Source: a virus (taxonomy: Duplodnaviria > Caudoviricetes). Taken from it: a stretch of 64,000 nucleotides of DNA. Every line of letters starts with the position of its first letter. The stretch's first letter is position 1. Shown one piece after another: positions 14,318-59,211 of the stretch. The stretch lies in the IMG/VR virus record IMGVR_UViG_2541047043_000003, positions 1-64,000 of that record. One strand, 5' to 3'. Under the pieces are notes generated by a model. It had not been told where the DNA came from. It ran no database searches and saw only the letters and a list, made by a program, of their open reading frames with translations. Position numbers and translations under genes: made by a program.

Positions 14318-14541
14318 CCGGAAAAATAACCCGTTACATCCCTTGGAACCGAACCTTAAACAAAGGAGGCTACGGATTTGTAGAATCGAACGGAAAAGAA
14401 TATTTTTTTAACGCGAAATATTCGAGTATCAAAGACGAAGAGATTATTCACGGCCTACCGGTCACATTTGAACTGAGGCGCGGGTACGACAAAAAACGAT
14501 TTGAGTATGTGACCCAGGCGACTCGGGTCAAAAGACTTTGA
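14275..14541 (+). CDS. Cold-shock-domain (OB-fold) protein
   Basis: GKI...GGYGFVE..GKEYFF RNP1/RNP2-like motifs. Confidence 0.7.
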   Translation: MAHKIHRLETKNNLTGKITRYIPWNRTLNKGGYGFVESNGKEYFFNAKYSSIKDEEIIHGLPVTFELRRGYDKKRFEYVTQATRVKRL

Positions 14542-15650
14542 AAAAAAGCGGTAGAGGGGGAAACACCCCCTTTTCGATCACAACCAAACCGAACGTACTC
14601 ACTCCTCTAACCAATGAGGAAATGATTGAAAGGCGGGGGGAATCTTGTCTTTGGTACAGACTAACCCCCTGCCCCTGTCCGGGGGAGGAGAGAGTTCCCG
14701 ATTGTAAATATTGTTTTGAAGGAATGATTCGGACTTTCCAAGAGGAACTAGAAATAACCGAGGAACTGAGTTGGAAGATAGAGGGAAATAAAATATATAC
14801 CCGGTATGCGCCCATAACGGAAGTAAAAAATGCGGTACTCATCTCAAGAGAAACACAAAAAAAACTGAATGTAAAAAGGATATGTGATGAGTACATCGAA
14901 GTCGAAGAGACATTAAAATATTGGAATAGCGTACTGCTACATTACAAAGTATCGATGCTCGAAGAGATTTGTGTAGAGGGATACGGAGAAAACGAATACG
15001 TCCTATTTCCAAAAATACCGTTAGGCGCAATCGTCGGAGTAAAAGAAGTTTTTAAAATAGAGGAAGGCAAAGAACCGGAACTCATAGAACACTCAAGCTT
15101 TACACTCAATTCGGTGGTATTTCCAAAAAGGGTCAATGGACTCTACAGATTAAAAATCCTTTTTTTCAATCCGGTAAAAGTCGGATACAAAACGTATCGA
15201 GTGGATACCGATGCACGCAGGATTTTTGATAGAAGTCAGATTACTTTCCAAGAGGGCGAAATAATGGCCGTAATCGGAGCCGGATACAATGTCGGACAAG
15301 GGGACATTATCACGCTACTTTCCTCAACGCTTAGGTTTAGCGAATACGTCCCTTGGCAATCGTCAAGCAATGACATACTCTCCTATTCTCCCATAACCCG
15401 CGTAGAAAAAATACTTACGAAAGAAAAAACGGGACTAAAAACCCACGAATTAGGAAAGGACTTTGTAATATTCGGAGATTCCAAAATCAAATGGATCACC
15501 GATAAACCGAAAAACGGATATAGTGTAATTTATGACTATCACCCGAGCTTTCGAATCTCCGGCTTTATCGAAGGCGGAAGCGGGGAAGACAGGGAAAAGC
15601 CGAAAATATTTAAACTAAAACCGATATCGAATTTAAACACACGTACTTAA
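14538..15650 (+). CDS. Virion structural protein (neck/head-completion-like)
   Basis: CPC..C..C..G motif seen in myovirus neck proteins; late-gene context. Confidence 0.5.
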   Translation: MKKSGRGGNTPFSITTKPNVLTPLTNEEMIERRGESCLWYRLTPCPCPGEERVPDCKYCFEGMIRTFQEELEITEELSWKIEGNKIYTRYAPITEVKNAVLISRETQKKLNVKRICDEYIEVEETLKYWNSVLLHYKVSMLEEICVEGYGENEYVLFPKIPLGAIVGVKEVFKIEEGKEPELIEHSSFTLNSVVFPKRVNGLYRLKILFFNPVKVGYKTYRVDTDARRIFDRSQITFQEGEIMAVIGAGYNVGQGDIITLLSSTLRFSEYVPWQSSSNDILSYSPITRVEKILTKEKTGLKTHELGKDFVIFGDSKIKWITDKPKNGYSVIYDYHPSFRISGFIEGGSGEDREKPKIFKLKPISNLNTRT

Positions 15651-15667
15651 AAGTAAGGAAAAAACAA

Positions 15668-16129
15668 ATGGAACTAAAACTAAAAGCGGATTGGAAGTTT
15701 AAAACCTTTAAAGAAAAAACGCACACTTTCTTGAAAATGAAAAATCAAGAATCCAAATTCATAGAAACCCTAAAATTAAACGCACTCTTTCCAATGTATC
15801 TAATCGGGATGATGAAACTTGCCTGGAGTATCTGGAGACACAAAATCAAATTTAGAACCGAAGTGCCGGGACAGTTGATGATTCTACACTACAACCAAAA
15901 AGAAATTAAGGATCTAAGCGGTGTATTAAAAAGAATTGAGGAGAGAGTCGTAAAACCCTTTCGTTTGTTACACAAAGTAAATCCTATAGTCCTTCTATTG
16001 CCGTTTGGAATCTCGTTTCAAGCGGGAAGTTTTAAAGGGTTTGTAAAATCACTGGACTCAGGCCAATTACAAGCCCTAAAAAAAGAGCTCTATGAAATAA
16101 AGATCCTAACCCCCGCAAATAACGAATAA
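15668..16129 (+). CDS. Hypothetical phage protein
   Basis: AAGGA RBS, 153-aa ORF. Confidence 0.6.
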   Translation: MELKLKADWKFKTFKEKTHTFLKMKNQESKFIETLKLNALFPMYLIGMMKLAWSIWRHKIKFRTEVPGQLMILHYNQKEIKDLSGVLKRIEERVVKPFRLLHKVNPIVLLLPFGISFQAGSFKGFVKSLDSGQLQALKKELYEIKILTPANNE

Positions 16130-16134
16130 GAGAC

Positions 16135-18339
16135 TTGGAAGAATTAGAAAAAGAAGATATCACTTCCGAACTCGCAGAAATAATCTTAGATAAAATTCAC
16201 CTGGCAATGACGAAAGAAAATCCGTCTTGGCAGGAAATGGCGATGAGTGATGGGCCGGACTCACACGAAGAAGAACTAAACTCACTATTAAAAGAAGGGT
16301 TTTTAAAGGTACTAAAACATTCCTCTAAAACTTTGTCGGAAGGGGCCTGTATCCAACTGTCAAAAGAATTTAAAACACTCAAAGCCTCCTATCTTTCAAA
16401 CTATCTAAAAGAAAAATCAAAAGCAGTCCAAACCCCAGAACAAAAAGAAGAAATTCAAAAATCAAAGCTACTACCCGGACAAAAAAGGCAGGGCAACTAC
16501 AAAAAAACGTATCTCCAAGGGATTGAAATCAGAATCGAAAATAAAAAGGGGACATATAGAGAAGGAACCGACTCCCACGGAAAAAAATGGAGAAACAAAA
16601 TCCATAACGACTATGGATACATAAAAAAAACAGACGGCGACCATGTAGACGTATTTGTCGGACCCGACAAAGAATCAAGGGTCGTATTCGTAATCAATCA
16701 GAAAGACAAGGAGGGAAATTTCGACGAACACAAGGTAATGCTTGGGTTTCACGACGAAAAATCGGCCAGAAACGGATATATAAAAAACTATCCGAAAAAT
16801 TGGAAGGGGTTCGGTAGTATCGTCAAATTAACCGTAGGAGAGTTTAAGGAGTGGTTAAAAACCGAAAACACCAAAAAAGAATTAAAAAATCCTAAAATAG
16901 AATTTTTAAAATCAAAACTCTCTCATTTAAGAAGCACACTAAAAAACATAAACACTCCACAAAACAAACTCTTTCAAAAAGAAGAGTATGGAGAAATGGA
17001 GGAAGAGTCCGTCTACAAAAGTCTTCTTTTAGAAGTAAAAAAATCCACGCATCTAATCTCAAACCTACAAAAAGCGGATGTAGGCAGGCCGCCCGATTTA
17101 ATCGGAACCGAAGAAGAATGGAATGACGGGCGGATGCATAAAAAAACGGAAAGCGGTTGGATTACACTCCCAAAAAAGAGAGAGAAAAGAACACCCGAAG
17201 AAACAAAAATTAAAAAACACCCGAAAAAGAAAATAGAAGAAAAACCAAAAAAAGGAAATACTCATCCGACAAAACTTCCCTTTTCACAAATAAGAGTCAT
17301 CGAACAATATACGGCAAAAAAAGACTACGATCGCAATCAAATCGAAACTTTAAAAATTAAAATAAAAAAAAATGGATACGATCCGAGCTTTCCTTTGTCG
17401 GTCGATTTAAAAGAAGGAAAGTGGACCGTTGTTGCCGGTCACCACAGATACGAAGCGGTGCGTGAGCTAATCGAAGAAGGGCATTTGTCGCAAAATATCG
17501 AAATACCGGTAGTCGAAAAAAATTTCGCGTCTAAAAACGATCGGCTGGTTGCACAAATTTCAGAAAATCACAGACGAAACGTACTCGCAACCGACGAAGC
17601 CAAAGCCTACGGGGAAATGGTAAAAAACGGATGGGACGTAAAAAAAATCTCGGAAGAACTAGGAATCAAAGTCGGGGAAGTAAATAAAAGGTTAGCACTC
17701 AATAATTTATCACCTGAGTTATTTGCACTCGTACACAAAAAAGACAGATCTTTGCCTCTTGGAATTGCAGAGGTGATAGGGATGAACGCAAAAGATGCAA
17801 ACGACAAACCCTCTCACACAATGCAAATCAGAGCGTTTAAGTGGTACGCTGAAAATAGGTCCAAATACGGAAGTAGGGGTGCAAGCGTACTCCAAAACTA
17901 TATCAAAGAATTACAAAGTGGAGAATTAGAAAATTTTGATTTTGATTACGTAGCGACGGATATACAAAAAGAGGCACTAAAGAACGTTTCCAAAGAGAAA
18001 GCGTCCGCAAATAAAAAGATGCTTGAGGTCATGCTCGACGGATTAACCAAAAGCATACAAAGGCCGCTTGGCGACAATATCACTTCCCTAAATCCACAGG
18101 TTGTAAAGGAGCTAGCGGCCTCACTCGCACTTAGCGCGGACAAAGGCGTGGAATCGTCTTCTGTACTCGGAAGACTTGGAGTCATAATCCAGGATTTGAC
18201 TTTAATAAAGAATTCGATTCAAAGTAAATTGAAAGAGATCGAAAACGAATCGAGTACACCTCTACTATTTGCAAAAGGTTTTTTACAAAAAATTAAAAAA
18301 ACCCTAGAACTTTCAAAAGGAAAGAAAGTGGAAATCTAA
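16135..18339 (+). CDS. Polyvalent protein: inorganic-pyrophosphatase-like (InPase) domain plus ParB domain
   Basis: GNYKK..IRIENKKG..R.G.D..GK.W...YGYI..TDGDHVDVFVG...FDEHKVMLGF; later VVAGHHRYEA...SENHRR. Confidence 0.8.
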   Translation: MEELEKEDITSELAEIILDKIHLAMTKENPSWQEMAMSDGPDSHEEELNSLLKEGFLKVLKHSSKTLSEGACIQLSKEFKTLKASYLSNYLKEKSKAVQTPEQKEEIQKSKLLPGQKRQGNYKKTYLQGIEIRIENKKGTYREGTDSHGKKWRNKIHNDYGYIKKTDGDHVDVFVGPDKESRVVFVINQKDKEGNFDEHKVMLGFHDEKSARNGYIKNYPKNWKGFGSIVKLTVGEFKEWLKTENTKKELKNPKIEFLKSKLSHLRSTLKNINTPQNKLFQKEEYGEMEEESVYKSLLLEVKKSTHLISNLQKADVGRPPDLIGTEEEWNDGRMHKKTESGWITLPKKREKRTPEETKIKKHPKKKIEEKPKKGNTHPTKLPFSQIRVIEQYTAKKDYDRNQIETLKIKIKKNGYDPSFPLSVDLKEGKWTVVAGHHRYEAVRELIEEGHLSQNIEIPVVEKNFASKNDRLVAQISENHRRNVLATDEAKAYGEMVKNGWDVKKISEELGIKVGEVNKRLALNNLSPELFALVHKKDRSLPLGIAEVIGMNAKDANDKPSHTMQIRAFKWYAENRSKYGSRGASVLQNYIKELQSGELENFDFDYVATDIQKEALKNVSKEKASANKKMLEVMLDGLTKSIQRPLGDNITSLNPQVVKELAASLALSADKGVESSSVLGRLGVIIQDLTLIKNSIQSKLKEIENESSTPLLFAKGFLQKIKKTLELSKGKKVEI

Positions 18340-18389
18340 CTTTCCCGATACTTCCAAAAACAAGTAAAAGGAAAAAAGAGTAATTTTTT

Positions 18390-18611
18390 TTGAGTAAATC
18401 TTTCAGACATCATCCGGAAGTGCTTCGAAATAGAGCCTTACTTACGGAAGGGTTGTATTTTCAAAAACTTACACACTCCGTATTTGATGAAATATGGCAA
18501 AATATAGATAGGACGTTTGTAGACCGAGACAGGCTTTTGGAATTTGTAATCAAAGAGGATTTACTCGGGGACTATGAGAAGTTTTTACAGCAAAAAGAGA
18601 ACGAAACTTAA
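18390..18611 (+). CDS. Small hypothetical protein
   Basis: 73-aa ORF downstream of a CCGAT motif at 18345. Confidence 0.5.
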   Translation: MSKSFRHHPEVLRNRALLTEGLYFQKLTHSVFDEIWQNIDRTFVDRDRLLEFVIKEDLLGDYEKFLQQKENET

Positions 18612-19149
18612 AAGTCTTTTAAAAAAAGAACGAAGTTTTGGAAAGGGGTTCTCGAATTGATTAAAAAGTCGGAACACATAAAAAACCGTTCGTTTTCGTT
18701 TTTACTACGAACCCAGAGAGTAAGATCCTCTAAAACTACGGACCGATTGTAATTTAAGTTATGCTCGTTTTTAAAGCCGTACGTTTTACTGAGTCCGATC
18801 AAAACTAGAAACCGACCTTTAAAAAGTCCTTTTTGGATATCTTTTAAATCGTGGATATCGCTAGAGTCCGGAAACCCGAAGGGGATCAAATTAATTTTAG
18901 GACCGATTGAAAATTTAGATTCCGAATTTAACGCATAAATAAAAGTATCCACAACGTTTCTAAAACCTTAATATTCTATTTTGGGATTTCTGTAAATAAA
19001 AAGAACGAATTCAAGGCCCGAAAACAGCAAGACTTAGTGAATAAAAAAACAGTCCCGATTTCTTTTTTCCAATTTTAAAAAAAAGAGAAAAAAACTCGGA
19101 AAATGGGTCACGAAAAATGACGTTAAACCTTTTAAAATTTGAAGATCTA

Positions 19150-19485
19150 TTATTTAGAGAATTCTTCCGCCAAAGATCTCGACATATCCGCATAAGAGGA
19201 GACTGACTTGGAAACAAGGTCTAAGATTTCTTCCTGATTGTCGTTTGTATGGAAAAGGGTAAGCCCTTGCGTTGACATTTGGTGAAAAAGAAGGTCTTTG
19301 TTAGAAGTGGGGTATTTTTTAAAAAGTTCGTTTGCGCGAAAAAGAAGTCCCCGCACAAAGTTGTAGGCGTCACTGGCCGCCTCGCTTTCCGATCGTCCTT
19401 TGTTTCTTGCAATTTGGCTAAGTTGACCGATCTGTTGAAAAATTAAATCTTGATTCATTGTTTTTGTACCTCCGCAACAACTCAT
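19150..19485 (-). CDS. Hypothetical helical protein
   Basis: 111-aa ORF with protein-like composition. Confidence 0.65.
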   Translation of the reverse strand: MSCCGGTKTMNQDLIFQQIGQLSQIARNKGRSESEAASDAYNFVRGLLFRANELFKKYPTSNKDLLFHQMSTQGLTLFHTNDNQEEILDLVSKSVSSYADMSRSLAEEFSK

Positions 19486-19664
19486 ATACTAATCTACCAC
19501 CTAAAAATCGGACAAGACTCTGATTTTAATTTTGTTTTGAGACGCACAAAACAACCACACACGCTACACTGCTCCGACAAAAACCCCTTTAAAATTAAAG
19601 GACAGGACAAACAAGTCTCCAAACGTTTTTTAGAAAAATCACTTTCCTTTTTAATCATACTTTT

Positions 19665-20111
19665 TTAACTCCAATACCTACCGTGAACGAGGTAAGTCGT
19701 GACCGGTTTCCACTGAAAAAATTCATAACGAAAAACTCTGTAACGAGTATACCAGTCCGGAATATAACAAGAGTTGCATGTGTGAATACAACACGTAGTG
19801 GTGCAACACCAAACAAAGGTGGTGCCACCCACCCAGCAAAGATTAATACTGACACTTCTGGAATAGCCGCCGGGACAAGGAAGACAATCAAACCAAGGCC
19901 CTTTTTGAAAACAGGAATCGCTACCACCGCATTGATTGCAGTCCGTAACCGAATAACCGTAATCAAGATGAGCGTCCACAACGTACCAAGTGTCTCCGAT
20001 AGTGTAAGAGCCTTTTGGAAAAACGTCGTAACGATTCGAACCTAAATTCCCCACCCAATGGCCGCTTGCTCCGCTTACCGGAGAAGAAGGCCCACTCGGC
20101 GGGGTTATGCG
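19665..20111 (-). CDS. Cys-rich (12 Cys) domain, probably expressed as a -1 frameshift extension of the upstream gene
   Basis: Frame open from the slippery site at 20111-20117; P/S/G-rich linker RITPPSGPSSPVSGASG; its GTG is buried in the hairpin. Confidence 0.7.
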   Translation of the reverse strand, partial: RITPPSGPSSPVSGASGHWVGNLGSNRYDVFPKGSYTIGDTWYVVDAHLDYGYSVTDCNQCGGSDSCFQKGPWFDCLPCPGGYSRSVSINLCWVGGTTFVWCCTTTCCIHTCNSCYIPDWYTRYRVFRYEFFQWKPVTTYLVHGRYWS

Positions 20112-20117
20112 AAAGGG
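20049..20117 (-). other. -1 programmed ribosomal frameshift signal
   Basis: C CCT TTC heptamer (20117-20111), 6-nt spacer, long stem-loop 20104-20049. Confidence 0.75.
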
Positions 20118-20881
20118 AGCCAGGTGGCTCCTTCGTTATCGCTCCAATAGGAAAAATTACCTTGAGTTCTAACCCTCCAGTTCTTGCTTGTAGAACCGGG
20201 GGAGGGGGTGGTTTTTAAAAAATCCTTTGATTCAAGGTGTTCGTAAATCCAGTTGATCGCACTGGCAAGAGACTCGTTGTCTAAAATTCCGGGGTTTAAT
20301 TCCACGTCGATTCCGATCAGTTTCGGGTCATAGACGGGTAAAGTGCGAGTAACGTTTGAAATGACACCACCGACACTTGTTTTTTGAAACGATAACAAAC
20401 CGATTCGGTTCGGAGAAACAGAGGGAAGATTTTGGGAATTAACGGATTGTTCGAAAACTCTGGACCTGAAAGTTTTTCTTGTGGGCCTTGTTTGAGGTTG
20501 GAATCTTTCGCTTGAATTAAAAATAGGAACCGCTTTTTCGTCGGTAAGAGAGGATTCTAGAGCAATTTCATAAATACCGACTCGCGAATTCGGATTAGGG
20601 GTTAAAGTTAAAGCGGGAACGATAAAAACGCAGTCGGTTCTTATAAAAATACCGGAACTCACTTGTATCGTATTCGGACCCGTTAAGGAAACTTCAAAAC
20701 CGATTGCTGTATCCGAATCCCTGTTGATCGTTGCAAGGATCGCAGAAAGTAAGGCCGGAACGATCGAGTTTGAACTTTCAGCCCCCGAGAGTCTGTTAAA
20801 ATCTTCTGCTGTGACTTTTTGAAAAAGATTTTGATAATAGACTTTGACTTCGTTACCGGAAATTAAGATTTCAGTTTCCAT
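20105..20881 (-). CDS. Baseplate/tail-fibre protein (likely start ATG 20881, METEIL; 258 aa)
   Basis: Follows baseplate J and gpI-like genes; ends in Asp-box-like YWSDNEGATW. Confidence 0.6.
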   Translation of the reverse strand: METEILISGNEVKVYYQNLFQKVTAEDFNRLSGAESSNSIVPALLSAILATINRDSDTAIGFEVSLTGPNTIQVSSGIFIRTDCVFIVPALTLTPNPNSRVGIYEIALESSLTDEKAVPIFNSSERFQPQTRPTRKTFRSRVFEQSVNSQNLPSVSPNRIGLLSFQKTSVGGVISNVTRTLPVYDPKLIGIDVELNPGILDNESLASAINWIYEHLESKDFLKTTPSPGSTSKNWRVRTQGNFSYWSDNEGATWLPFA

Positions 20882-21470
20882 TTTTAGCTCCAAGAAAAAC
20901 GGCGGTGCCAGCCGCAAGAATTCGATTGAGTTGTGTGATTTGAATGTCTTTAAAAGAAGAAAGGTTTTCGGCGACAATGTAACTCACACCTCTGTCGGGT
21001 GTGACGATACTCGAAACCGAGTTCGTATCGGGACCCGGAAGAAAAAGGCCGGTATCACTAGCCGATACGTCGGTTGCAAACCCGAGTTCGTTACATCGTA
21101 AAACCGCAAAGTCAGGCCTTTGAAAAATCTGTCCGATTTTTGGAATCGTAGGTTCGTTAGAAAGAACGTATCCTAGGATGTAGCCTACAAACTCGGGATC
21201 ATTCATATTCAAAGGTCGCTCGATTCCTAGAAGCTCTGCCCACTTTCTAAGGAAATGACCTTCCGTGTTAGACAAAACCGCGCAGTGTGTGGCAAGTTCT
21301 TGATACCTCAAATGCCACTCAACGGAATTAAAAAGCGCGCCTACGTTTATATCATTGACGTTCGTTGTCGGAAGATACTCGGGACGGGACTTGTCGCCGA
21401 ACAGTTCTTTAAACGTAGGGTCGGTTTCGTTAAACTGAGGGAGTCTTTCTAAAAGTTTATTTAAAGCCAT
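20871..21470 (-). CDS. Baseplate wedge protein (gpI-like)
   Basis: GHFLRKWAELLGIERP...D..F motif; directly after baseplate J. Confidence 0.7.
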   Translation of the reverse strand: MALNKLLERLPQFNETDPTFKELFGDKSRPEYLPTTNVNDINVGALFNSVEWHLRYQELATHCAVLSNTEGHFLRKWAELLGIERPLNMNDPEFVGYILGYVLSNEPTIPKIGQIFQRPDFAVLRCNELGFATDVSASDTGLFLPGPDTNSVSSIVTPDRGVSYIVAENLSSFKDIQITQLNRILAAGTAVFLGAKNGN

Positions 21471-21475
21471 ATATC

Positions 21476-22660
21476 TTAAGAGGGTTCGGATTTGGAAGCG
21501 GAACCCAAAATCACGCCCAGAGACGAACCGCCGGTTCTTGGAAGAAACGTGGGAGGAACGCTAACGTCATTTGGAATCGGCGGCGTATTTGGAACGGGGT
21601 CGGTCGCAAGTTTTCCGTAGAGTTCTAAGATCGTTACCTTGTAAAAGTCGGGATGACTTTTAAGGATAGTACCTTCCACTTGTTTGAGTAAAACGTCAAA
21701 ACCAACCGGAAGGGTGTTGAGATAAGTTGTGATTGCGTTTGTTGCGACCGAGATCGCGTCATCGATTGAGACTTGAGAATTATTTAATATTTCTAAATGA
21801 AATTTAACCGAGATTCCAAGAACCGGGATTTTAAAAACACAAACCCAAGTGCCAGCGGCCGCATACCCGGGGAAATTTTCAGGGTCTTGTAAATCCCCTT
21901 CGATTGTTTTTTGAACGAAGTCAAGGAGGGATTGCGGAGGATTTGACGTGCCGTCTGAGACATACAAATTGATCCAACCGAATTCCCTTTGACCCGAAAA
22001 GGGGTTTACGTTTGTAGTAAGTTGCGCTCCGGCGATACCTGGAATAGAAATCGTAGCGGTATAGATACCGAGGGGTGTGGATCTACCCAAAGAAACGATA
22101 AAATTACGAAATCTTTTAAGACGATTTTCTTCGCTTTCTTTATTTGTACCTCCCGCAAAATCGTTCGGATTCCAAACCCGAGTATTTGCAGGAAGTTGAA
22201 TATTTAAGGTACCGAGACCTTCTTCCGTATCGATCGAAAGCCTACGAATATTAAAGTCGACACCCGGCTCTTTGGCCCGAATTTCAATTTCACCAAAGGT
22301 TTGGCCCACTTCGATGGAAGTAGGTAGAACGGATTCGTACATAAGGCCGAAAAGATCGAGGGTAAAAATCGGAATTGGAACGGGAGATGTATGGCCTTGG
22401 TGTTCGATTCGAACGATACCAACCGATCTTAAACCCGGAAGCCTTGAAAACCCGAGTGCTGTATATATTCCTTCCCGGATCGAGTAGTCAAAACCGTTGA
22501 GGGTTCTAAGATCGCCTTCGGCTAAAACGGAGGCAATGGCCGCGATCCAAGTGGAAATCCTAGAACCCGGATTGAAGTTACAAAGTCTAGAACCCGTAGA
22601 GATTAGGAAATTTTGAATCGCTATTTTGTATTCAAGTTCGGTTTTGGGAACGTAAGCCAC
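21476..22660 (-). CDS. Baseplate J/gp47 family protein (likely start GTG 22660)
   Basis: FNPGS, A..PG...N, FAGG..KESEE.R..RF, GWINLYVSDG, YAAAG. Confidence 0.88.
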   Translation of the reverse strand: MAYVPKTELEYKIAIQNFLISTGSRLCNFNPGSRISTWIAAIASVLAEGDLRTLNGFDYSIREGIYTALGFSRLPGLRSVGIVRIEHQGHTSPVPIPIFTLDLFGLMYESVLPTSIEVGQTFGEIEIRAKEPGVDFNIRRLSIDTEEGLGTLNIQLPANTRVWNPNDFAGGTNKESEENRLKRFRNFIVSLGRSTPLGIYTATISIPGIAGAQLTTNVNPFSGQREFGWINLYVSDGTSNPPQSLLDFVQKTIEGDLQDPENFPGYAAAGTWVCVFKIPVLGISVKFHLEILNNSQVSIDDAISVATNAITTYLNTLPVGFDVLLKQVEGTILKSHPDFYKVTILELYGKLATDPVPNTPPIPNDVSVPPTFLPRTGGSSLGVILGSASKSEPS

Positions 22661-50751: not shown

Positions 50752-51729
50752 ATGAATACTGAGATAAATGAAACTGTCGAGAAGTCCCTCTGGGATCAAA
50801 TGAAGTCCTCCTTAAACGAACGAGTTGGAAGCCCATTTTACTTCTCTTTCACGATTTCCTTTTTAATGTGGAATTGGGATATCTTTTATATTCTGTTCTT
50901 TGAAAGTTATAGCTATGAAAAGTTTCGAATTTCACTTACTGATTATGATTTCACAATTTGGAAAGCTACCGGGACCGCATCGATTTATACTCTTATTTAT
51001 ACAATACCCAATTTGATTTCTGATAACGTTTCTTTTCGGTTCAAAATTTTTAATGAGAACAATAAAAATAAATATCAAGAAAAGAATCTATTTCTTGATT
51101 CGGTAACCGGTGACAAAATTAAACATTCATATCAAGATTCAATATCGAAGTTAAATAAAAAAATCGAACATTTGAACTCTGAATTAGATAAAATTCACGA
51201 TTATTATCATAACTATATGACTTCATACTTTTTAAAGGACAACAATTTAACGGATGCAAAATTATCTCTAGAAATGTGTTGGAAAAATCAGTCTTATTCC
51301 TTAAACGATATAGGAAAATCAGTTGGCTTATTTAATATTAGTTCCAATGGAAAAGAATTAATACTAACCAATTCTCCAAATTTCAATACCAGTGGCGGAC
51401 TTCATGAAAAAGGAATTATTCTCGCAGTATATGAGAAAGAAGTCCTAATTGCAAAAAAAGGTACTATACCGTTGGAATTTTTTAAGAATTCAATTTCTAA
51501 TTACGAAGAATTATTAAACCAAGTTCAAAATACGACTTTCGGCATTGAAATTTATTTAAGAAATGATCCAGGAATGATGACTGCACATTTTAATATGTCT
51601 ACAACTCGAAATGAACTCTCTCGAAAATATAATGGCGACTATACTTTAATTGGAACCGCTTTGAAAATCGGTGTAACTTTAAATTTTCAAGATAAATCAA
51701 CTGTACCAATGTTGTTCTTTAAAAACTAA
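50752..51729 (+). CDS. Low-GC accessory membrane protein with coiled coil
   Basis: ER..SPF..SF.ISF..WNW N-terminal TM motif seen in prophage moron proteins. Confidence 0.65.
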   Translation: MNTEINETVEKSLWDQMKSSLNERVGSPFYFSFTISFLMWNWDIFYILFFESYSYEKFRISLTDYDFTIWKATGTASIYTLIYTIPNLISDNVSFRFKIFNENNKNKYQEKNLFLDSVTGDKIKHSYQDSISKLNKKIEHLNSELDKIHDYYHNYMTSYFLKDNNLTDAKLSLEMCWKNQSYSLNDIGKSVGLFNISSNGKELILTNSPNFNTSGGLHEKGIILAVYEKEVLIAKKGTIPLEFFKNSISNYEELLNQVQNTTFGIEIYLRNDPGMMTAHFNMSTTRNELSRKYNGDYTLIGTALKIGVTLNFQDKSTVPMLFFKN

Positions 51730-51852: not shown

Positions 51853-52938
51853 CTACTCGGACGTATAAAAATGGAACCCAGAATAAATGAGAATTAAATA
51901 ATGTCTTAATGGATATAGATGCAAGGAAAATAGGAAGAAAAGGACAAGAGAAACTTCGACGTCTTGGAGTCCAACGAGTATTGGAAGGAGAATCGCCAAA
52001 AGCAGTATCGGAAAGTTTAAAGTTAGGAAGAAAAACAATCTTTGTATGGTTGAAAAAATACAAGGAAGATGGAGAAAAAGGCCTGATTCCCGGTAAGGCG
52101 AAAGGTAAAGCCCCTTTACTGAACGCCAAACAGAAACAAAGATTAAGTAGAATGATTGTCGGTAAAGATCCTCGACAATGGTCATTGAGCTCGGGTTTGT
52201 GGACTCGAAAATTGGTATCAGAACTGATTATGAAAGAGTTTGGAATTAAAATCGGTTTAACGGCGGTAGGTAATCTATTACATAGTTTGAATATAACCCC
52301 GCAAAAGCCGTTAAAAGTAGCCTACCAAAGAGATCCTCAAGCAGTCAAAGAATGGATGGAAGTAACGTATCCTTTGATCCGCAAAAATGCGAAGAAAACC
52401 GGGGCAGAGATCTATTTTACAGATGAAACGGGAATTCGCTCAGATTCTACGGTTGGAAGGACTTGGGGTCGAAAAGGAGATAAGGTCATTTTAAAAGATA
52501 CTGGAGTTCGTAGTAAAGTAAATGCGATCTCGGCTGTGAATATTTCCGGTGCATTTTGGTATCAAACTTACACTGGAAAGTTTACGGGATCTAAGTTCGT
52601 AGAACTGTTAAAAGACTTCATGAAGTATAGAAAAAAGAAAGTCTTTCTCATTTTGGATGGCCACCCCACTCACAAGGCAAAAGAAGTGAAAGAATACTTA
52701 AAACTTCTCAATGGTAAATTAGAATTTTATTTTCTTCCTGGATATTCTCCTGACTTAAATCCAGATGAGTTTGTCTGGAATCATTTAAAGACAAATCTTC
52801 TACCTAAACGATTCTTGGGTTCCAATGATACTATTTTATATGTTGTTCAAGCATGTCTTCAATCTATTAAAGCTAATGCTAAACTCGTGCGTTCATTCTT
52901 TTTGTTTAAATCGGTATCCTATTTATACGACTGAGTAG
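51853..52938 (+). mobile_element. IS630-family insertion sequence
   Basis: Imperfect terminal IRs CTACTCGGACGTATAAA / TTTATACGACTGAGTAG; TA target duplication at 51851-52 and 52939-40. Confidence 0.9.
51909..52934 (+). CDS. IS630 transposase
   Basis: HTH, LWT, FTDE, ILDG..TH, FLPGYSPDLNPDE.VW DDE motifs. Confidence 0.95.
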   Translation: MDIDARKIGRKGQEKLRRLGVQRVLEGESPKAVSESLKLGRKTIFVWLKKYKEDGEKGLIPGKAKGKAPLLNAKQKQRLSRMIVGKDPRQWSLSSGLWTRKLVSELIMKEFGIKIGLTAVGNLLHSLNITPQKPLKVAYQRDPQAVKEWMEVTYPLIRKNAKKTGAEIYFTDETGIRSDSTVGRTWGRKGDKVILKDTGVRSKVNAISAVNISGAFWYQTYTGKFTGSKFVELLKDFMKYRKKKVFLILDGHPTHKAKEVKEYLKLLNGKLEFYFLPGYSPDLNPDEFVWNHLKTNLLPKRFLGSNDTILYVVQACLQSIKANAKLVRSFFLFKSVSYLYD

Positions 52939-53468
52939 TAAGTGGGTTAACTACACCTTGTTATAGCCCAATTTTGGGATCTTTTTTATTGACTCTTATT
53001 TAGTATTACTAATATTTGAATATATTATATTCTAATTAATATGATCTAAAACGCACTTACCGTAATCCCTGGGTTGAGAAAGAAGACTCTGGCGCCATTA
53101 GCCAAATCAGATTTAACGAATGGGATAAGGAAGATTCAAAAACGGATCAGGAGGTCAAGGAATCATGAAAAGCATTTCAGAGAATAAGAAATTAAAAATT
53201 AGCGCAAAGGTTCTAAAACTTATCAATACTTATAAGAGAATTTTTAATGAGAACGTATAGTATTTTTTAGGAACAAAAAAATACTATTCTAATCCAGAAA
53301 AGAGACAGGAAATCCTTGAAAAGGAACAGATGAAAGATGAATCAAATAGTTAATATATTTGTGACAGACGCAAAACATGAAAAATAAATAGAAAATCTTA
53401 ATGAAGCAAGAGCAGTGAATACCGGCTCAACTCATAATTCATTAACTATTAATAACAAAGGATAACAT

Positions 53469-53789
53469 ATGAAACCACTTATATTCGATTACATGCGAGA
53501 GCAAACAAATGTGGAGTTTCCAGAATTAACTTACGACCGGAAGTCAGGATTAAATTTCATTAATGGAACTAAATTTGTAGATTTGTGCAATTCCAAAACT
53601 GTGTTGCAAACGAAAACATTTACGCAAAGAGAGTCTGATGATGAGGAGAAGCCTTATACTTCCAGTATTTCAAAGATGTTCTTGGTGACAAAAACAGATA
53701 CAATAAGGGAAGTAGATGATGATATGAATTTTAATAATTTAACATATTTATTGACCAAAACCGAAGAAAACAAGGAACAGGATGAATAA
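53469..53789 (+). CDS. Graspetide (omega-ester/amide RiPP) precursor with three cores
   Basis: Leader KPLIFDY...YD..SGLN; cores TKTFTQRESDD, TKTDTIREVDD, TKTEENKEQDE; overlaps the ATP-grasp gene. Confidence 0.85.
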   Translation: MKPLIFDYMREQTNVEFPELTYDRKSGLNFINGTKFVDLCNSKTVLQTKTFTQRESDDEEKPYTSSISKMFLVTKTDTIREVDDDMNFNNLTYLLTKTEENKEQDE

Positions 53790-54750
53790 GGTTCTCATTA
53801 TAACAAATAAAGAGGACGTTACGGTAGACTTTGTTATCAATAAACTAATTCATCTTAATGCCAATTATTTAAGGTTAAATACTGAGGAACTCGGTTCTGA
53901 AATTTTTATAAAAATAGATCCAATAAAAGGGGAAGTTCTTATCAAGGAAAACTCCAAGAAAGAAGCCTTAGATTTATCCACATTTGATACTGTATATTAT
54001 AGAAGGCCCAAGCTCCCTACAGGGCCGAACTCACTCACAAATGGTGAATTACATTTTTTCTCTCAGGAATTAAATGTTATATTGGAATATATTAATGTAT
54101 TTTTAGATAACAAATTATGGCTGAACAAAATTTCAAACATACGTAAAGCCGAGAATAAAATTAATCAGTTGTCAGTAGCAAAAAATATTGGCTTTACTAT
54201 CCCTATCTCCCTAATAACAAACTTGCCGAAAGAAGCTAACGCATTCATTAATTATACTGAAAGATCGATTTTAAAACCACTTAAAGTGGGCCTCATAGAA
54301 GAAGAACAATTATCCTCAAAGATTGTTTATACCAATGAAGTAAATCAGTATTTTCGAGATAATATTGATCGTGTCGGGTTGTTGCCTGTTTATCTTCAGG
54401 AAAAAATTGAAAAACAATTCGATATTAGAGTAACAATTGTTGGAAATAAGATTTTCGCAGCGCAAATAGATTCGCAGTCCGACGAAACATCAAAAACAGA
54501 CTGGCGAGCATCAAGAAACATCCTCCCACATCAACGAATACAACTCCCAGCAAAAATCGAAAGATATTGTTTAGAATTAATGAAACATTTTGAATTAAAT
54601 TTTGCTGCAATTGATTTAGTCTTAGACAAAAATGATAATTACATATTCCTAGAAATAAATCCAAATGGTCAATGGGCTTGGATTGAAAAAATATTGGAAT
54701 ATCCGATAAGCGATTCAATAGCAAGGTTTCTCATCAGCGGCATTGTATGA
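53782..54750 (+). CDS. MvdC/MvdD-family ATP-grasp peptide macrocyclase
   Basis: VYYRRP, AENKINQL..A...GF.IP, LKPL, QEKIEK..DIRVT.VG, DWR, FAAIDL, FLEINPNGQW.W. Confidence 0.92.
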   Translation: MNKVLIITNKEDVTVDFVINKLIHLNANYLRLNTEELGSEIFIKIDPIKGEVLIKENSKKEALDLSTFDTVYYRRPKLPTGPNSLTNGELHFFSQELNVILEYINVFLDNKLWLNKISNIRKAENKINQLSVAKNIGFTIPISLITNLPKEANAFINYTERSILKPLKVGLIEEEQLSSKIVYTNEVNQYFRDNIDRVGLLPVYLQEKIEKQFDIRVTIVGNKIFAAQIDSQSDETSKTDWRASRNILPHQRIQLPAKIERYCLELMKHFELNFAAIDLVLDKNDNYIFLEINPNGQWAWIEKILEYPISDSIARFLISGIV

Positions 54751-55370
54751 AAAAATTCTTATCGAAGATAATTAATATTTTCTGGCCTTTTTTAGAAGGA
54801 GAGGTTAGCAATTACAATAATTTTCTTAAAATAGAAAACATGAAATCCAAGCTTATTGATGAAAAAGATATTGATAGATGTATAAAAATGTATGAGTTCC
54901 AAAGAGATCGAATAAAAACAATTGAATCTAAATCTATAGTATTTATTGGGTTTTTTGGAAGTATCGTGGCCCTATTAGGAATTACATTAAAAGAGATCAT
55001 ACTTAATAAAGATAAAGACTTACTTGAATATGGTCTGATGCTATTAGTTAGTATATTTATAATTTATACTTCTACAGTGATTCGCTATGCAATTAAAGCT
55101 TTAGAGAGAAAAGCATATTATAGTATTGACGAAAAAGATATTTTTGAAAGTAGAAATATTGATAAGGCTATAGCAATAATCAATAAAATTAAGCGCAACT
55201 ATGATGCCATAAATACAAAAGTAGATTCAATGACTTTAGCTCAAGAATTTGCAAAAAGAATATTATATTTATTAATATTCTTGGCTTTGATGAGCGGTAC
55301 ATATAGTATAATGAACTTATTAGAACCTCTAAACTTATTTTATATTTGTTTCGCTCACTATTTAAGCTAG
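54747..55370 (+). CDS. 3-TM membrane protein coupled to the ATP-grasp gene
   Basis: ATGA overlap; RIKTIESKS + TM-TM, soluble loop, NTK..M + TM. Confidence 0.75.
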   Translation: MKKFLSKIINIFWPFLEGEVSNYNNFLKIENMKSKLIDEKDIDRCIKMYEFQRDRIKTIESKSIVFIGFFGSIVALLGITLKEIILNKDKDLLEYGLMLLVSIFIIYTSTVIRYAIKALERKAYYSIDEKDIFESRNIDKAIAIINKIKRNYDAINTKVDSMTLAQEFAKRILYLLIFLALMSGTYSIMNLLEPLNLFYICFAHYLS

Positions 55371-55466: not shown

Positions 55467-55838
55467 TCACTCTGCATATAGAAAAACCTCTACCGGCTTC
55501 TTAAACAATTTAGAAAGCTGTTTTGCTAAATCTTTTGAAATTGGCCTTTTTCCTAATTCCATAGCAGAAAGATTTTGTCTCGGGATACCGCCCAATTTAT
55601 CTCCAAGTTCCGAAAGGCTCAATCCTGCTTTTTTTCTATAATATTTCAATTTTGATCCAGGCTGAAGAAACTCCTCATTCTCTTTGAAAAATTCAGTATC
55701 CTTCCAAGGAATCGATTCCTCAGACTTATCAATATGAAGTTTTTTACCAAATTCCTTTTTAAGAGCTTTCAGAAAGGTAGAAGAAATTTCACCTTTAATC
55801 GTAACTTCAGTACGGGGCGTTTTCACGACTGCCTGCAT
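55467..55838 (-). CDS. XRE-family antitoxin (HigA-like)
   Basis: LKYYRKKAGLSLSELG..LG.IPRQNLSAMELGKRPIS. Confidence 0.85.
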   Translation of the reverse strand: MQAVVKTPRTEVTIKGEISSTFLKALKKEFGKKLHIDKSEESIPWKDTEFFKENEEFLQPGSKLKYYRKKAGLSLSELGDKLGGIPRQNLSAMELGKRPISKDLAKQLSKLFKKPVEVFLYAE

Positions 55839-56073
55839 AATATACCTCGATTAATAATGAATTCTTTTCATTTCTCCAGCATGCGACCCAGCTATAAGAT
55901 AGATGACAATGATATTCATTTTTACTTAATTTACTATAATTAGGCCACTCGGCTTGAACCGGACCTTCTTTCTCTAATTCTTCCAATAATAAAACTAAAT
56001 CTTGTCTTGCACTCTTTGGCATTTGGCGAGCTTTCTTTGCCGCTGATTTTGTTAGCTCCACATGGAAGGCCAC
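55807..56073 (-). CDS. RelE/HigB-like toxin
   Basis: V.LTKSA.K...MP, L...L...GP, YHCHL...WVACW, IEV.YAGSRE.APY; upstream of the antitoxin. Confidence 0.8.
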   Translation of the reverse strand: MAFHVELTKSAAKKARQMPKSARQDLVLLLEELEKEGPVQAEWPNYSKLSKNEYHCHLSYSWVACWRNEKNSLLIEVYYAGSRENAPY

Positions 56074-58401: not shown

Positions 58402-59211
58402 TTATTGATTAAAATCATTTCTTACTTGGTGATATTTTTTAAAAAAGGATTTTTTAGGATGAACTTGAATAATATTTTTACTTGGAATATCTGATTTAAC
58501 AAATCCCTCTAAATCACTAGTATGAAACTTTTTATTTATGGAGTGTGCATAATTGCTTACAAGAGTTTTCCCAAATCCATATTCTTGAAATATCGTTAAT
58601 TCTGAAACTTCAATTAATGCCTCAATAACCACAGGCTTTCCAATACTTTTACACAGTTTTGTAATTTTACGATCTTCTTTAAACCAAAAATAAACCGCTT
58701 CCCCGCCATAATATTTTAAGAAATCTTCGGAGTCTTCTCCTACAAAGTTGCGATTTAAACAAAACCATAAGGTTCCTTCTCTTCCTTCAGAATTGTTTTC
58801 GCGAAAATAATCTAACTTTTCTTTAAAGTAAACAATGTCTTCTTTAGAAATTCTGAGTTCATCTTTTAAATATTGAATAAACTCAGAATGATGTTGACGC
58901 ATGTTCAGAATTCTTAGACCAGTTTTATGGTAAGGCTTAGTATGAATCTCTTTTGTACAATGGAACCCGACTATTCCATTATTGTTACAATATTTTTCTA
59001 CATCCTCGAAAATATCGACTATACAACGATCTCGTTTAATGTTTTCGATCCATAAATTATTCATTAATAGATCAATAACTTTCCTTTGATTCAGTTGATC
59101 TATTATGTTTTTTGGATACGTTTTTGAATCATCGAGTATTATCATATATAAATTAAAAAAGTTTTTCGCATCGATGTCTACCATATTAGGCTTTTGACTT
59201 TGAATCCGCAA
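58402..59211 (-). CDS. Hypothetical protein with possible ADP-ribosyltransferase-like fold
   Basis: GFHCT....GL, LWFCL, YYGGE, EG....IP..NI pattern. Confidence 0.5.
   Translation of the reverse strand: MRIQSQKPNMVDIDAKNFFNLYMIILDDSKTYPKNIIDQLNQRKVIDLLMNNLWIENIKRDRCIVDIFEDVEKYCNNNGIVGFHCTKEIHTKPYHKTGLRILNMRQHHSEFIQYLKDELRISKEDIVYFKEKLDYFRENNSEGREGTLWFCLNRNFVGEDSEDFLKYYGGEAVYFWFKEDRKITKLCKSIGKPVVIEALIEVSELTIFQEYGFGKTLVSNYAHSINKKFHTSDLEGFVKSDIPSKNIIQVHPKKSFFKKYHQVRNDFNQ

What the first reader, a model, noticed from the sequence alone, without database searches (positions are those of the whole stretch)
53469..55370. Phage-plasmid graspetide operon coupled to a Pycsar-effector-like membrane protein: candidate RiPP-based defence or signalling system
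Seen: three overlapping genes (GATGAATAA and ATGA junctions). They encode a 106-aa precursor with three TKT-x4-E-x-D[DE] cores, an MvdC/D-type ATP-grasp ligase, and a 207-aa 3-TM protein. No protease, ABC exporter or acetyltransferase is nearby. The block is visibly more AT-rich and sits in the accessory arm between an IS630 and a TA pair. Established: such ligases form Thr/Ser-Asp/Glu esters and Lys-Asp/Glu amides (microviridin, plesiocin, thuringinin). Inference: the TM protein layout (R..IE.K.-TM-TM, loop, N.K-TM) recalls PycTM/DUF5706 or SLATT-type effectors. The cyclised peptide may therefore stay inside the cell and gate or neutralise a membrane effector, as an abortive-infection or superinfection-exclusion module rather than a secreted protease inhibitor. 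I know of no described Leptospira phage graspetide system, but I cannot search.
Basis: partly seen in the sequence, partly recalled or inferred. Interest (0 to 1): 0.85.

Follow-up and report, generated by a model that had tools for sequence, protein, structure and literature searches.

The report
Phage-borne graspetide cassette with membrane partner
A Leptospira prophage carries a compact three-gene unit (a repeat peptide, the enzyme predicted to staple its side chains into rings, and a small membrane protein that always travels with that enzyme); the unit is of a kind already catalogued, but what the membrane partner does is still unknown.

Summary
Three translationally coupled genes sit at 53469-55370. 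They encode a 106-aa precursor with three TKTx4ExD[DE] cores, a graspetide-type ATP-grasp ligase and a 207-aa 3-TM protein.

The element is an LE1-like Leptospira phage. A free plasmid state is not shown, because the contig runs on for about 125 kb of higher-GC DNA.

The membrane protein is an obligate partner of the ligase:
- Every TM-homologue locus with room upstream has the ligase directly upstream: 1 Leptospiraceae, 4 genome and 20 metagenome loci, 25 in all.
- Three natural ligase-TM fusion proteins exist.
- In a related phage the same triad sits at a different position, so it moves as a unit.

The layout (precursor, ligase, membrane protein of unknown function) is in print for thuringinin and plesiocin clusters. 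This scan also noted the same kind of cassette before on other DNA.

Homology to PycTM or SLATT is not supported:
- No Pfam or PADLOC match.
- hhalign probability 2-5%.
- A pLDDT-94 model finds no fold match.

Only the general helix/TM-hairpin layout is alike.

The defence idea is untested but not excluded. In 8 of 12 non-Leptospira loci a tested neighbour matches a PADLOC model, with no control for the base rate.

My best reading is a mobile thuringinin-branch graspetide cassette whose TM protein tethers the ligase to the membrane and handles the modified peptide.

The parts
52935..53468 (+). Upstream intergenic region, the presumed promoter region of the cassette
   Evidence: 534 nt lie between the IS630-type gene and the precursor ATG. 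Promoter-like hexamers occur at 52989-53045 and 53330-53359, but no more often than in shuffles: 12 found against 14.3 expected. The start of transcription is not established.
53469..53789 (+). Graspetide precursor, 106 aa: leader of about residues 1-47 (MKPLIFDY..., LNFING) plus three cores
   Evidence: ORF. tblastn finds homologous precursors directly upstream of the ligase in L005 and L007-L010 and in 14 metagenome loci. All 18 precursors are shown.
53610..53642 (+). Core 1, TKTFTQRESDD (residues 48-58)
   Evidence: Motif scan. Sequence read.
53688..53720 (+). Core 2, TKTDTIREVDD (residues 74-84)
   Evidence: Motif scan. Sequence read.
53754..53786 (+). Core 3, TKTEENKEQDE (residues 96-106, the C-terminus)
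   Evidence: Motif scan. Sequence read.
53782..54750 (+). Graspetide ATP-grasp macrocyclase, 322 aa
   Evidence: PF21068 and RimK. TIGR04187, TIGR04184 and TIGR04185 at 1e-58 to 9e-73, all under their cut-offs. Nearest solved structures are CdnC 7mgv (8e-41) and MdnC 5ig9 (4e-38). It carries all 42 columns that are invariant among 39 relatives.
54747..55370 (+). Obligate membrane partner, 207 aa, 3 TM, N-terminus inside
   Evidence: Family of 484 representatives at E<=1e-3. Always downstream of the ligase. Three fusions to the ligase. AF2 pLDDT 94. K+R counts are 13, 2, 10 and 0 for the N-terminus, loop 1, loop 2 and tail.
51909..52934 (+). IS630-type transposase (context, not part of the cassette)
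   Evidence: DDE_3 8.8e-35 plus HTH domains.
55467..56073 (-). HTH_3 regulator (123 aa) with an overlapping 88-aa ORF, convergent on the cassette (context)
   Evidence: HTH_3 4.9e-12. The 88-aa ORF has no Pfam match.

Best explanation
This is a self-contained, horizontally mobile graspetide cassette of the thuringinin branch. It is carried as cargo (a moron) in the AT-rich accessory arm of an LE1-like Leptospira prophage.

Inferred from the family:
- The ATP-grasp ligase binds the precursor's leader (MKPLIFDY...).
- Using ATP, it joins Thr side chains to downstream Glu/Asp side chains as omega-esters in each of the three TKTx4ExD[DE] cores.
- It may also join the Lys to an Asp as an amide.
- The product would be a tandem array of small, very acidic ring modules.

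Shown by association and fusion:
- The 3-TM protein is the ligase's obligate partner.

Inferred about the partner:
- Its N-terminus and its conserved polar residues face the cytoplasm.
- It tethers the ligase to the inner membrane.
- It receives the modified peptide there, most likely passing it out of the cytoplasm or holding it at the membrane.

The end use is not resolved. It could be an exported protease inhibitor, like all characterised graspetides, or an activity that serves the phage or lysogen.
For: Ligase class.

Precursor: the leader and repeated core are conserved in 18 of 18 precursors compared.

Translational coupling:
- 8-nt and 4-nt overlaps here.
- Overlaps also in G095, L007 and L008.

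Obligate partnership:
- TM and ligase are each found in the same 2 of 114 Leptospiraceae genomes.
- The ligase is directly upstream of the TM gene in G095, in 4 of 4 genome loci from Gammaproteobacteria and Bacteroidota and in 20 of 24 metagenome loci.
- In the other 4 metagenome loci the TM match lies within 251 nt of a contig end.
- Three natural ligase-TM fusions exist: P0133 (Pfam ATP-grasp at 4-315, TM profile at 337-517), P0239 (hhalign prob 100) and P0248 (prob 99.5).

Topology:
- In the fusions the cytosolic enzyme sits at the TM protein's N-terminus.
- K+R counts are 13 (N-terminus), 2 (loop 1), 10 (loop 2) and 0 (tail).
- The invariant and near-invariant residues (P14, R55, E60, K62, N151, N156, K158, D160, Q166, R171) lie in the cytoplasmic segments.

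Mobility:
- The related phage in G095 is syntenic at 48-72% amino-acid identity.
- There the triad sits between the homologues of window genes 20105-20977 and 20871-21470, which are adjacent here.

No dedicated transporter or protease is seen in the cassette or its scanned flanks.

Literature:
- Makarova et al. 2022 call the thuringinin-locus membrane proteins likely peptide transporters, because those loci lack known transporters (PMC8939145, passages).
Against: - No experiment bears on any step.
- A 3-4-TM protein with no conserved polar residues inside its TM helices, apart from Y107, is not a typical transporter.
- Its fold matches nothing in PDB or BFVD.
- No leader protease is present, so a classical mature secreted product is not evident.
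- Tested neighbours in 8 of 12 other loci match defence models. The triad also rides predicted phages in 3 of 12 viral ligase loci. Both fit a conflict role as well as, or better than, a secreted inhibitor.
- I could not confirm that this TM family is Makarova's 'cluster 18', because supplementary tables are closed. The membrane protein of a Bacillus thuringiensis thuringinin-type locus shows no detectable similarity to it.
- Ligase-TM docking could not be modelled (see Tried and rejected).
Confidence: 0.5

Rival explanations
1. Conflict system. The cross-linked peptide stays in the producing cell and gates or neutralises the membrane protein. That protein acts as a membrane-disrupting effector in abortive infection or superinfection exclusion for the benefit of the prophage or lysogen.
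For: - Location in a phage accessory arm.
- The triad sits at different positions in two related phages.
- It is present on two further predicted viral contigs, L068 and L069.
- PADLOC-type neighbours occur in 4 of 4 genome loci: Dsr1-like, ThsB-TIR with TIR/TPR-S and QueC, Upx-like, and type I REase.
- They also occur in 4 of 8 metagenome loci: REase_I twice, PDC-S58/ApeA-like and PrimPol.
- No exporter or leader protease is present.
- The protein-atlas lead: clusters in which 11-15% of members carry PycTM come up at feature score 0.91 and TM 0.51/0.67.
- NINJ1, a membrane-rupture protein, recurs among the top fold hits, though not significantly, at E 0.12-0.37.
Against: - No homology to any known effector. 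There is no PADLOC or Pfam match, and hhalign gives 5.2% and 2.4% against PycTM profiles.
- The neighbour counts have no control for base rate, and I chose which neighbours to test.
- Mobile islands carry many kinds of cargo.
- All characterised graspetides are protease inhibitors (PMC8939145, passage).
- No sensor component is evident.
- No paper links graspetides to anti-phage defence in my searches.
Confidence: 0.25
2. The membrane protein is an immunity or self-protection factor, or a membrane receptor for the peptide, rather than part of its biosynthesis or export.
For: - Small membrane proteins often serve as immunity factors in peptide-toxin loci (general knowledge, recalled).
- The linkage to the ligase is strict.
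Against: - Fusion to the biosynthetic enzyme in three proteins is not expected of an immunity factor.
- Its conserved residues face the cytoplasm, not the outside where a returning peptide would arrive.
Confidence: 0.08
3. The membrane protein is the missing processing enzyme, a leader peptidase or a further tailoring enzyme.
For: - No protease is encoded nearby.
- A conserved E-S-K triplet precedes TM1.
Against: - Among 64 relatives only R55, K62 and N151 are invariant.
- No Ser, His, Cys or metal-binding motif is conserved.
- There is no match to any peptidase family.
Confidence: 0.05

Closest known systems
Thuringinin-branch graspetide clusters (omega-ester peptide groups 3, 5 and 6 of Lee et al. 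2020, which Makarova et al. 2022 merge as precursor cluster 13 with 'cluster 18' membrane proteins)
   Same: - One ATP-grasp ligase.
- A precursor with several repeated cores, in which Thr donors precede Glu/Asp acceptors.
- A shared leader type.
[quoted passage not shown] 1 legend).
- The window precursor aligns weakly with the precursor of a B. thuringiensis plasmid locus: 32% over 109 aa, E 8e-4.
   Different: - The core here is TKTx4ExD[DE]. In the B. thuringiensis-type loci I saw, it is Tx2Tx3ENxDxDE-like.
- Gene order here is precursor-ligase-TM. There it is ligase-membrane-precursor.
- The B. thuringiensis membrane protein (361 aa) shows no detectable similarity.
- Which numbered group this core belongs to is recalled only and was not checked.
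- Carriage on a Leptospira phage is not in the papers I searched (listing of 12 of 66 papers, none holding 'Leptospira').
Microviridin / chryseoviridin systems (MdnA with MdnB/MdnC; CdnC)
   Same: - Nearest solved ligase structures: CdnC 7mgv at 8e-41, MdnC 5ig9 at 4e-38.
- Leader-guided side-chain ester and amide formation.
- Some relatives' leaders (KxPFIARFAE in L055, L057, L062, L064) recall the PFFARFL leader motif quoted in PMC8939145.
   Different: - One ligase, not two.
- Repeated cores of a different motif.
- No acetyltransferase and no ABC transporter/protease.
- The NCBIfam MvdC and MvdD models score far under their cut-offs: 196 of 425 bits and 199 of 475 bits.
Pycsar effector PycTM (PF18967 / DUF5706)
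   Same: - Gross layout: a cytoplasmic helix running into TM1, a tight TM1-TM2 hairpin, a cytoplasmic helical insert, then TM3.
- hhalign puts ESKS opposite DQKA in the same register.
- The atlas lists PycTM-containing clusters among the look-alikes.
   Different: - No HMM match.
- No PADLOC match.
- Profile-profile probability of 5.2% and 2.4%.
- No cyclase partner. The partner here is an ATP-grasp ligase.
Partner-protein-dependent graspetide synthetases (rosaritide MirB/MirC, Carter et al. 2026, PMC13097080)
   Same: A strictly co-occurring protein forms a complex with the graspetide synthetase and is needed for its activity and stability (abstract). This is a precedent for an obligate non-catalytic partner.
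   Different: That partner is a soluble SurA/PPIase-like protein (section 9 passage), not a membrane protein, and it belongs to a different graspetide group.

Membership tests
Graspetide (ATP-grasp RiPP) biosynthetic cluster | MvdC/MvdD-type ATP-grasp ligase with a pre-ATP-grasp domain | tested here: met
   PF21068 6.7e-10 and RimK 8e-8. Four NCBIfam peptide-maturase models at 3e-39 to 9e-73, all below their equivalog/subfamily cut-offs. CdnC and MdnC are the nearest structures.
Graspetide (ATP-grasp RiPP) biosynthetic cluster | Adjacent small precursor with a leader and a core in which Thr/Ser/Lys donors precede Asp/Glu acceptors | tested here: met
   Three TKTx4ExD[DE] cores after a conserved leader. 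The same design occurs in 17 other loci.
Graspetide (ATP-grasp RiPP) biosynthetic cluster | Side-chain ester or amide cross-links actually formed | not testable with these tools
   Needs mass spectrometry of the co-expressed precursor and ligase.
Thuringinin-branch loci (Makarova precursor cluster 13 + membrane cluster 18) | Several repeats of a T...E..D-type core behind a shared leader | tested here: inconclusive
   Repeats and leader are present. Similarity to a B. thuringiensis thuringinin-type precursor is weak: E 8e-4, 32%. The membership tables are in supplements that I could not open.
Thuringinin-branch loci (Makarova precursor cluster 13 + membrane cluster 18) | The membrane protein belongs to 'cluster 18' | not testable with these tools
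   The cluster lists are supplementary and closed. The one thuringinin-type membrane protein I could compare (L006, 361 aa) gave hhalign probability 0.2%.
PycTM / Pycsar effector (PF18967) | Match to the PF18967 profile | tested here: not met
   No hit for the protein at E<=1. PF18967 is not among the 25 most-matched families for 8 or for 64 relatives at E<=10. It finds nothing in G000 at 1e-5, while it does find genes in 33 of 401 Spirochaetota genomes.
PycTM / Pycsar effector (PF18967) | Profile-profile similarity to PycTM proteins | tested here: not met
   hhalign probability is 5.2% against 29 Spirochaetota sequences. It is 2.4% against that set plus 113 database relatives. As positive controls, the fusion proteins score 99.5-100%.
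PycTM / Pycsar effector (PF18967) | Adjacent pyrimidine cyclase | tested here: not met
   The neighbours are the ATP-grasp ligase and a convergent HTH gene.
SLATT membrane effectors | Match to a SLATT profile | tested here: not met
   No SLATT family is listed for the protein (E<=1). None is among the 25 most-matched families of 64 relatives. No PADLOC model matches.
LE1-like Leptospira phage | Phage structural and packaging genes related to LE1-type phages | tested here: met
   Terminase large subunit, baseplate wedge and Leptospira-phage PHROGs. 70.1% nucleotide identity over 77% of 14538-22500 to Leptospira phage vB_LnoZ_CZ214-LE1, KF114877.1.
Phage-plasmid | Extrachromosomal circular replicon | tested here: inconclusive
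   A ParB-like gene is present. But the contig is 194,662 bp with no terminal overlap. After about 70 kb it continues at GC 0.43-0.46 with an AraC-type regulator and an RHS-repeat gene.

The most novel reading that the evidence does not exclude
Graspetide-plus-membrane-partner triads are a widespread mobile conflict module, carried on phages and in defence islands. In this reading the ATP-grasp-cross-linked acidic repeat peptide is not a secreted natural product. It acts in the producing cell on its own membrane partner, a previously unseen fold, to control membrane integrity during phage infection or superinfection. That would be the first RiPP-gated membrane effector.
Probability: 0.2. Interest if true: 0.85.

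Novelty: new member of a known kind. Interest (0 to 1): 0.5.

Why it matters
[quoted passage not shown] Nobody has said what it does beyond a guess at transport.

This locus and its relatives show several things about that protein:
- It is inseparable from the ligase and is even fused to it.
- Its conserved face points to the cytoplasm.
- It has a confidently predicted fold with no known look-alike.
- The three genes travel as one unit on phages and among defence-type genes in three phyla.

This makes a simple experiment informative: express the peptide and ligase with and without the membrane gene, then follow mass, location, toxicity and phage plaquing. If the unit proves to be an exporter, a gap in graspetide biosynthesis closes. 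If it proves to be a phage-exclusion device, RiPP chemistry joins the list of bacterial immune mechanisms.

Tried and rejected
- PycTM/SLATT homology was rejected.
- Fold matches: Foldseek found none at E<=0.001. NINJ1 at E 0.12-0.37 is treated as architecture only.
- No solved structure matches the TM profile by sequence (E<=1).
- The B. thuringiensis plasmid membrane protein shows no detectable similarity.
- DNA-level relatives of the cassette: none in 50,697 phage records, and only short fragments in plasmids.
- tblastn of the TM protein: none in phages and none in 72,556 plasmids.
- tblastn of the ligase: 1 phage record at 33% identity.
- Expression: no RNA holder was listed among the sequencing runs, so I did not lay reads.
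- Promoter and terminator scans were no better than shuffles.
- Complex prediction of ligase with TM protein was not available for this window. Ligase-TM docking therefore stays untested.
- Earlier-findings look-ups by place and by sequence returned nothing.
- Group numbering of the core motif (Lee et al. 2020) could not be checked. That paper is not in the library and the supplements are closed.
Full report
**What is there**

Window 53469-55370 holds three same-strand ORFs.
- The precursor's last codons overlap the ligase start by 8 nt (GATGAATAA).
- The ligase stop overlaps the start of the third gene by 4 nt (ATGA).

The 106-aa product has a leader (MKPLIFDY ... LNFING) and three cores. These are TKTFTQRESDD, TKTDTIREVDD and TKTEENKEQDE, at residues 48, 74 and 96.

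The 322-aa product is a graspetide macrocyclase.
- It matches Pfam MvdD pre-ATP-grasp and RimK.
- It matches four NCBIfam 'ATP-grasp ribosomal peptide maturase' models at 3e-39 to 9e-73, all under their family-specific cut-offs.
- Its nearest solved structures are CdnC and MdnC.
- It keeps every column that is invariant among 39 relatives.

The 207-aa product has three hydrophobic helices and no match in Pfam, NCBIfam or PADLOC.

**The setting**

The window is an LE1-like Leptospira phage.
- It has a terminase, a baseplate wedge and Leptospira-phage PHROGs.
- It shares 70% nucleotide identity over 77% of the structural block with phage vB_LnoZ_CZ214-LE1.

The cassette lies in an AT-rich arm. 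GC is 0.32-0.35 from 50 to 70 kb, and 0.30 for the cassette itself. Its neighbours are an IS630-type transposase and a convergent HTH gene.

The label 'phage-plasmid' is not established.
- The contig is 194,662 bp and its ends do not overlap.
- Beyond about 70 kb it continues at GC 0.43-0.46 with an AraC-type regulator and an RHS-repeat gene.

The '88-aa toxin' of the supposed TA pair has no family match.

**The membrane protein is the ligase's obligate partner**

A word-index search found only 7 relatives. A profile search of 1.84 billion representatives found many more: 484 at E<=1e-3 and 226 at E<=1e-10.
- Most are about 240 aa with a fourth TM helix.
- Conserved motifs are FWPxLE, ESK, ALERxxY and INxKVDxMxxAQExxKR.

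Among 114 Leptospiraceae genomes, the TM gene and the ligase each occur in the same two: this one and G095, in another genus. In G095 the three genes are again overlapping and in the same order.

In every locus with room upstream, the ligase sits directly upstream of the TM gene.
- This holds for four genome loci: two Gammaproteobacteria and two Bacteroidota.
- It holds for 20 of 24 metagenome loci.
- The four exceptions have the TM match within 251 nt of a contig end.

A repeat-core precursor precedes the ligase in all four genome loci. Among the 20 metagenome loci it was found in 19: 14 by tblastn and 5 by reading the ORFs. The remaining one is cut by the contig end.

Three database proteins are natural ligase-TM fusions: P0133, P0239 and P0248.

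**The cassette moves as a unit**

The G095 phage is syntenic with this one at 48-72% protein identity. There the triad sits between the homologues of window genes 20105-20977 and 20871-21470. Those genes are adjacent here, some 33 kb from the window's cassette.

IMG/VR holds that G095 element as an 84,970-bp viral contig.

Of 12 viral contigs with a relative of the ligase, three have a TM-family gene directly downstream: the G095 phage, L068 and L069. Five others carry the thuringinin-type order of ligase, 369-aa membrane protein, then precursor.

None of the deposited Leptospira phages has the cassette.

**Topology and structure**

In the fusions the cytosolic enzyme precedes the TM domain, so the N-terminus is inside. 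K+R counts agree: 13, 2, 10 and 0 for the N-terminus, loop 1, loop 2 and tail.

The conserved polar residues therefore all face the cytoplasm. They lie at the membrane-proximal ends of two long helices that run into TM1 and TM3.

With 64 relatives as the alignment, AlphaFold2 gives pLDDT 94 and pTM 0.85. Foldseek then finds nothing at E<=0.001 in PDB or BFVD.

**Test of the PycTM/SLATT idea**

Evidence against kinship:
- No HMM match for the protein or its relatives.
- PF18967 finds no gene in this genome, although it finds genes in 33 of 401 Spirochaetota genomes.
- Profile-profile comparison with those genes gives 5.2% probability.
- Adding 113 database relatives lowers this to 2.4%. The fusion proteins, as positive controls, give 99.5-100%.

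The only positive signs:
- The atlas look-alike lists include clusters where 11-15% of members carry PycTM, at feature score 0.91 and TM 0.51/0.67.
- The two families share the same gross layout.

I read this as resemblance in architecture, not membership.

**What bears on function**

For a role in export or as a scaffold:
- The obligate link and the fusions.
- The cytoplasmic conserved face, rich in Arg and Lys, opposite a very acidic product. The core part of the precursor has 15 D+E against 8 K+R.
- The lack of any other transporter.
- The suggestion in print that the thuringinin-locus membrane proteins transport the peptide (PMC8939145, passage).
- A precedent for an obligate partner of a graspetide synthetase (PMC13097080, abstract).

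For a conflict role:
- Phage carriage.
- Tested neighbours matching PADLOC models in 4 of 4 genome loci: Dsr1-like, ThsB-TIR with TIR/TPR-S and QueC, Upx-like, and type I REase.
- The same in 4 of 8 metagenome loci.
- Overall, 10 of the 20 proteins tested matched. There was no control for base rate, and I picked the neighbours to test myself.

No experiment and no RNA data exist.

**Comparison with what is known**

The layout of precursor, single ligase and 'membrane protein of unknown function' is drawn for the plesiocin and thuringinin clusters (10.1101/2021.05.19.444834, Fig. 1 legend).

[quoted passage not shown] I could not check that it is this family, because the supplements are closed.

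This scan's earlier notes describe the same kind of triad on other DNA, with the same suspicion of a pore-like partner (e1-2497650, e1-1257546). Another note describes a phage-borne graspetide cassette of a different family (e1-5328284).

I found no paper linking graspetides to anti-phage defence. Among the 12 papers listed of 66, none links them to Leptospira.

**Verdict**

This is a real, intact, mobile graspetide cassette of a catalogued kind, and a new member on an LE1-like Leptospira prophage.

The added value here has four parts:
- Firm evidence that the membrane protein is the ligase's obligate, cytoplasm-facing partner.
- A confident model with a fold that matches nothing known.
- Rejection of PycTM/SLATT kinship.
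- A context that keeps a defence or exclusion role alive, at roughly one chance in four or five.

Noticed in passing
G000:C35 about 71277-77993 (L066 9275-15994, minus strand), outside the window: A very large ORF (2239 aa or more) with RHS repeats, an SpvB-like N-terminus and FG-GAP repeats lies just beyond the AT-rich arm of the phage. I only name it.
   Followed up: no
window 16135-18339 (+): A 734-aa phage protein combines a segment shared with minor head / DarB-like antirestriction proteins (residues about 102-249) and a ParB-like domain (about 357-534). It is conserved in the G095 phage at 51% identity.
   Followed up: no
window 50752-51729 (+) and 58402-59211 (-): Two AT-rich accessory ORFs (325 and 269 aa; GC about 0.28) have no Pfam match. 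They are further unexplained cargo of the same arm.
   Followed up: no
L055 301-2721, L057 393-2852, L062 992-3454, L064 664-3171: In one branch of the cassette family, a conserved protein of about 806-835 aa with paired CxxC motifs sits directly upstream of the precursor. It has no PADLOC match. It may be a fourth component in that branch.
   Followed up: partly
L055 2746-3171 and relatives: These precursors have a leader KxPFIARFAE, close to the microviridin PFFARFL leader motif quoted in PMC8939145. Their cores are of the TKTx4ExD type. This links the two leader types.
   Followed up: no
L011-L038 (Leptospiraceae genomes): Stand-alone proteins of about 175 aa from the PycTM family (PF18967) are present in 28 of 74 Leptospiraceae genomes sampled, but not in this genome. 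So the family is not confined to Pycsar operons there.
   Followed up: no
L006 (B. thuringiensis plasmid pHS18-2, NZ_CP012101.1 53077-61227): This is a thuringinin-type locus in the order ligase, 361-aa membrane protein, 130-aa four-core precursor. It sits next to an IS6 transposase and a Cry8Ea1-family gene. Its ligase ORF has a foreign N-terminus and is annotated 'PH domain-containing protein'.
   Followed up: partly
L009 4504-5469, L010 4498-5463: In the Bacteroidota loci a conserved 321-aa protein with no Pfam or PADLOC match directly follows the TM gene.
   Followed up: no
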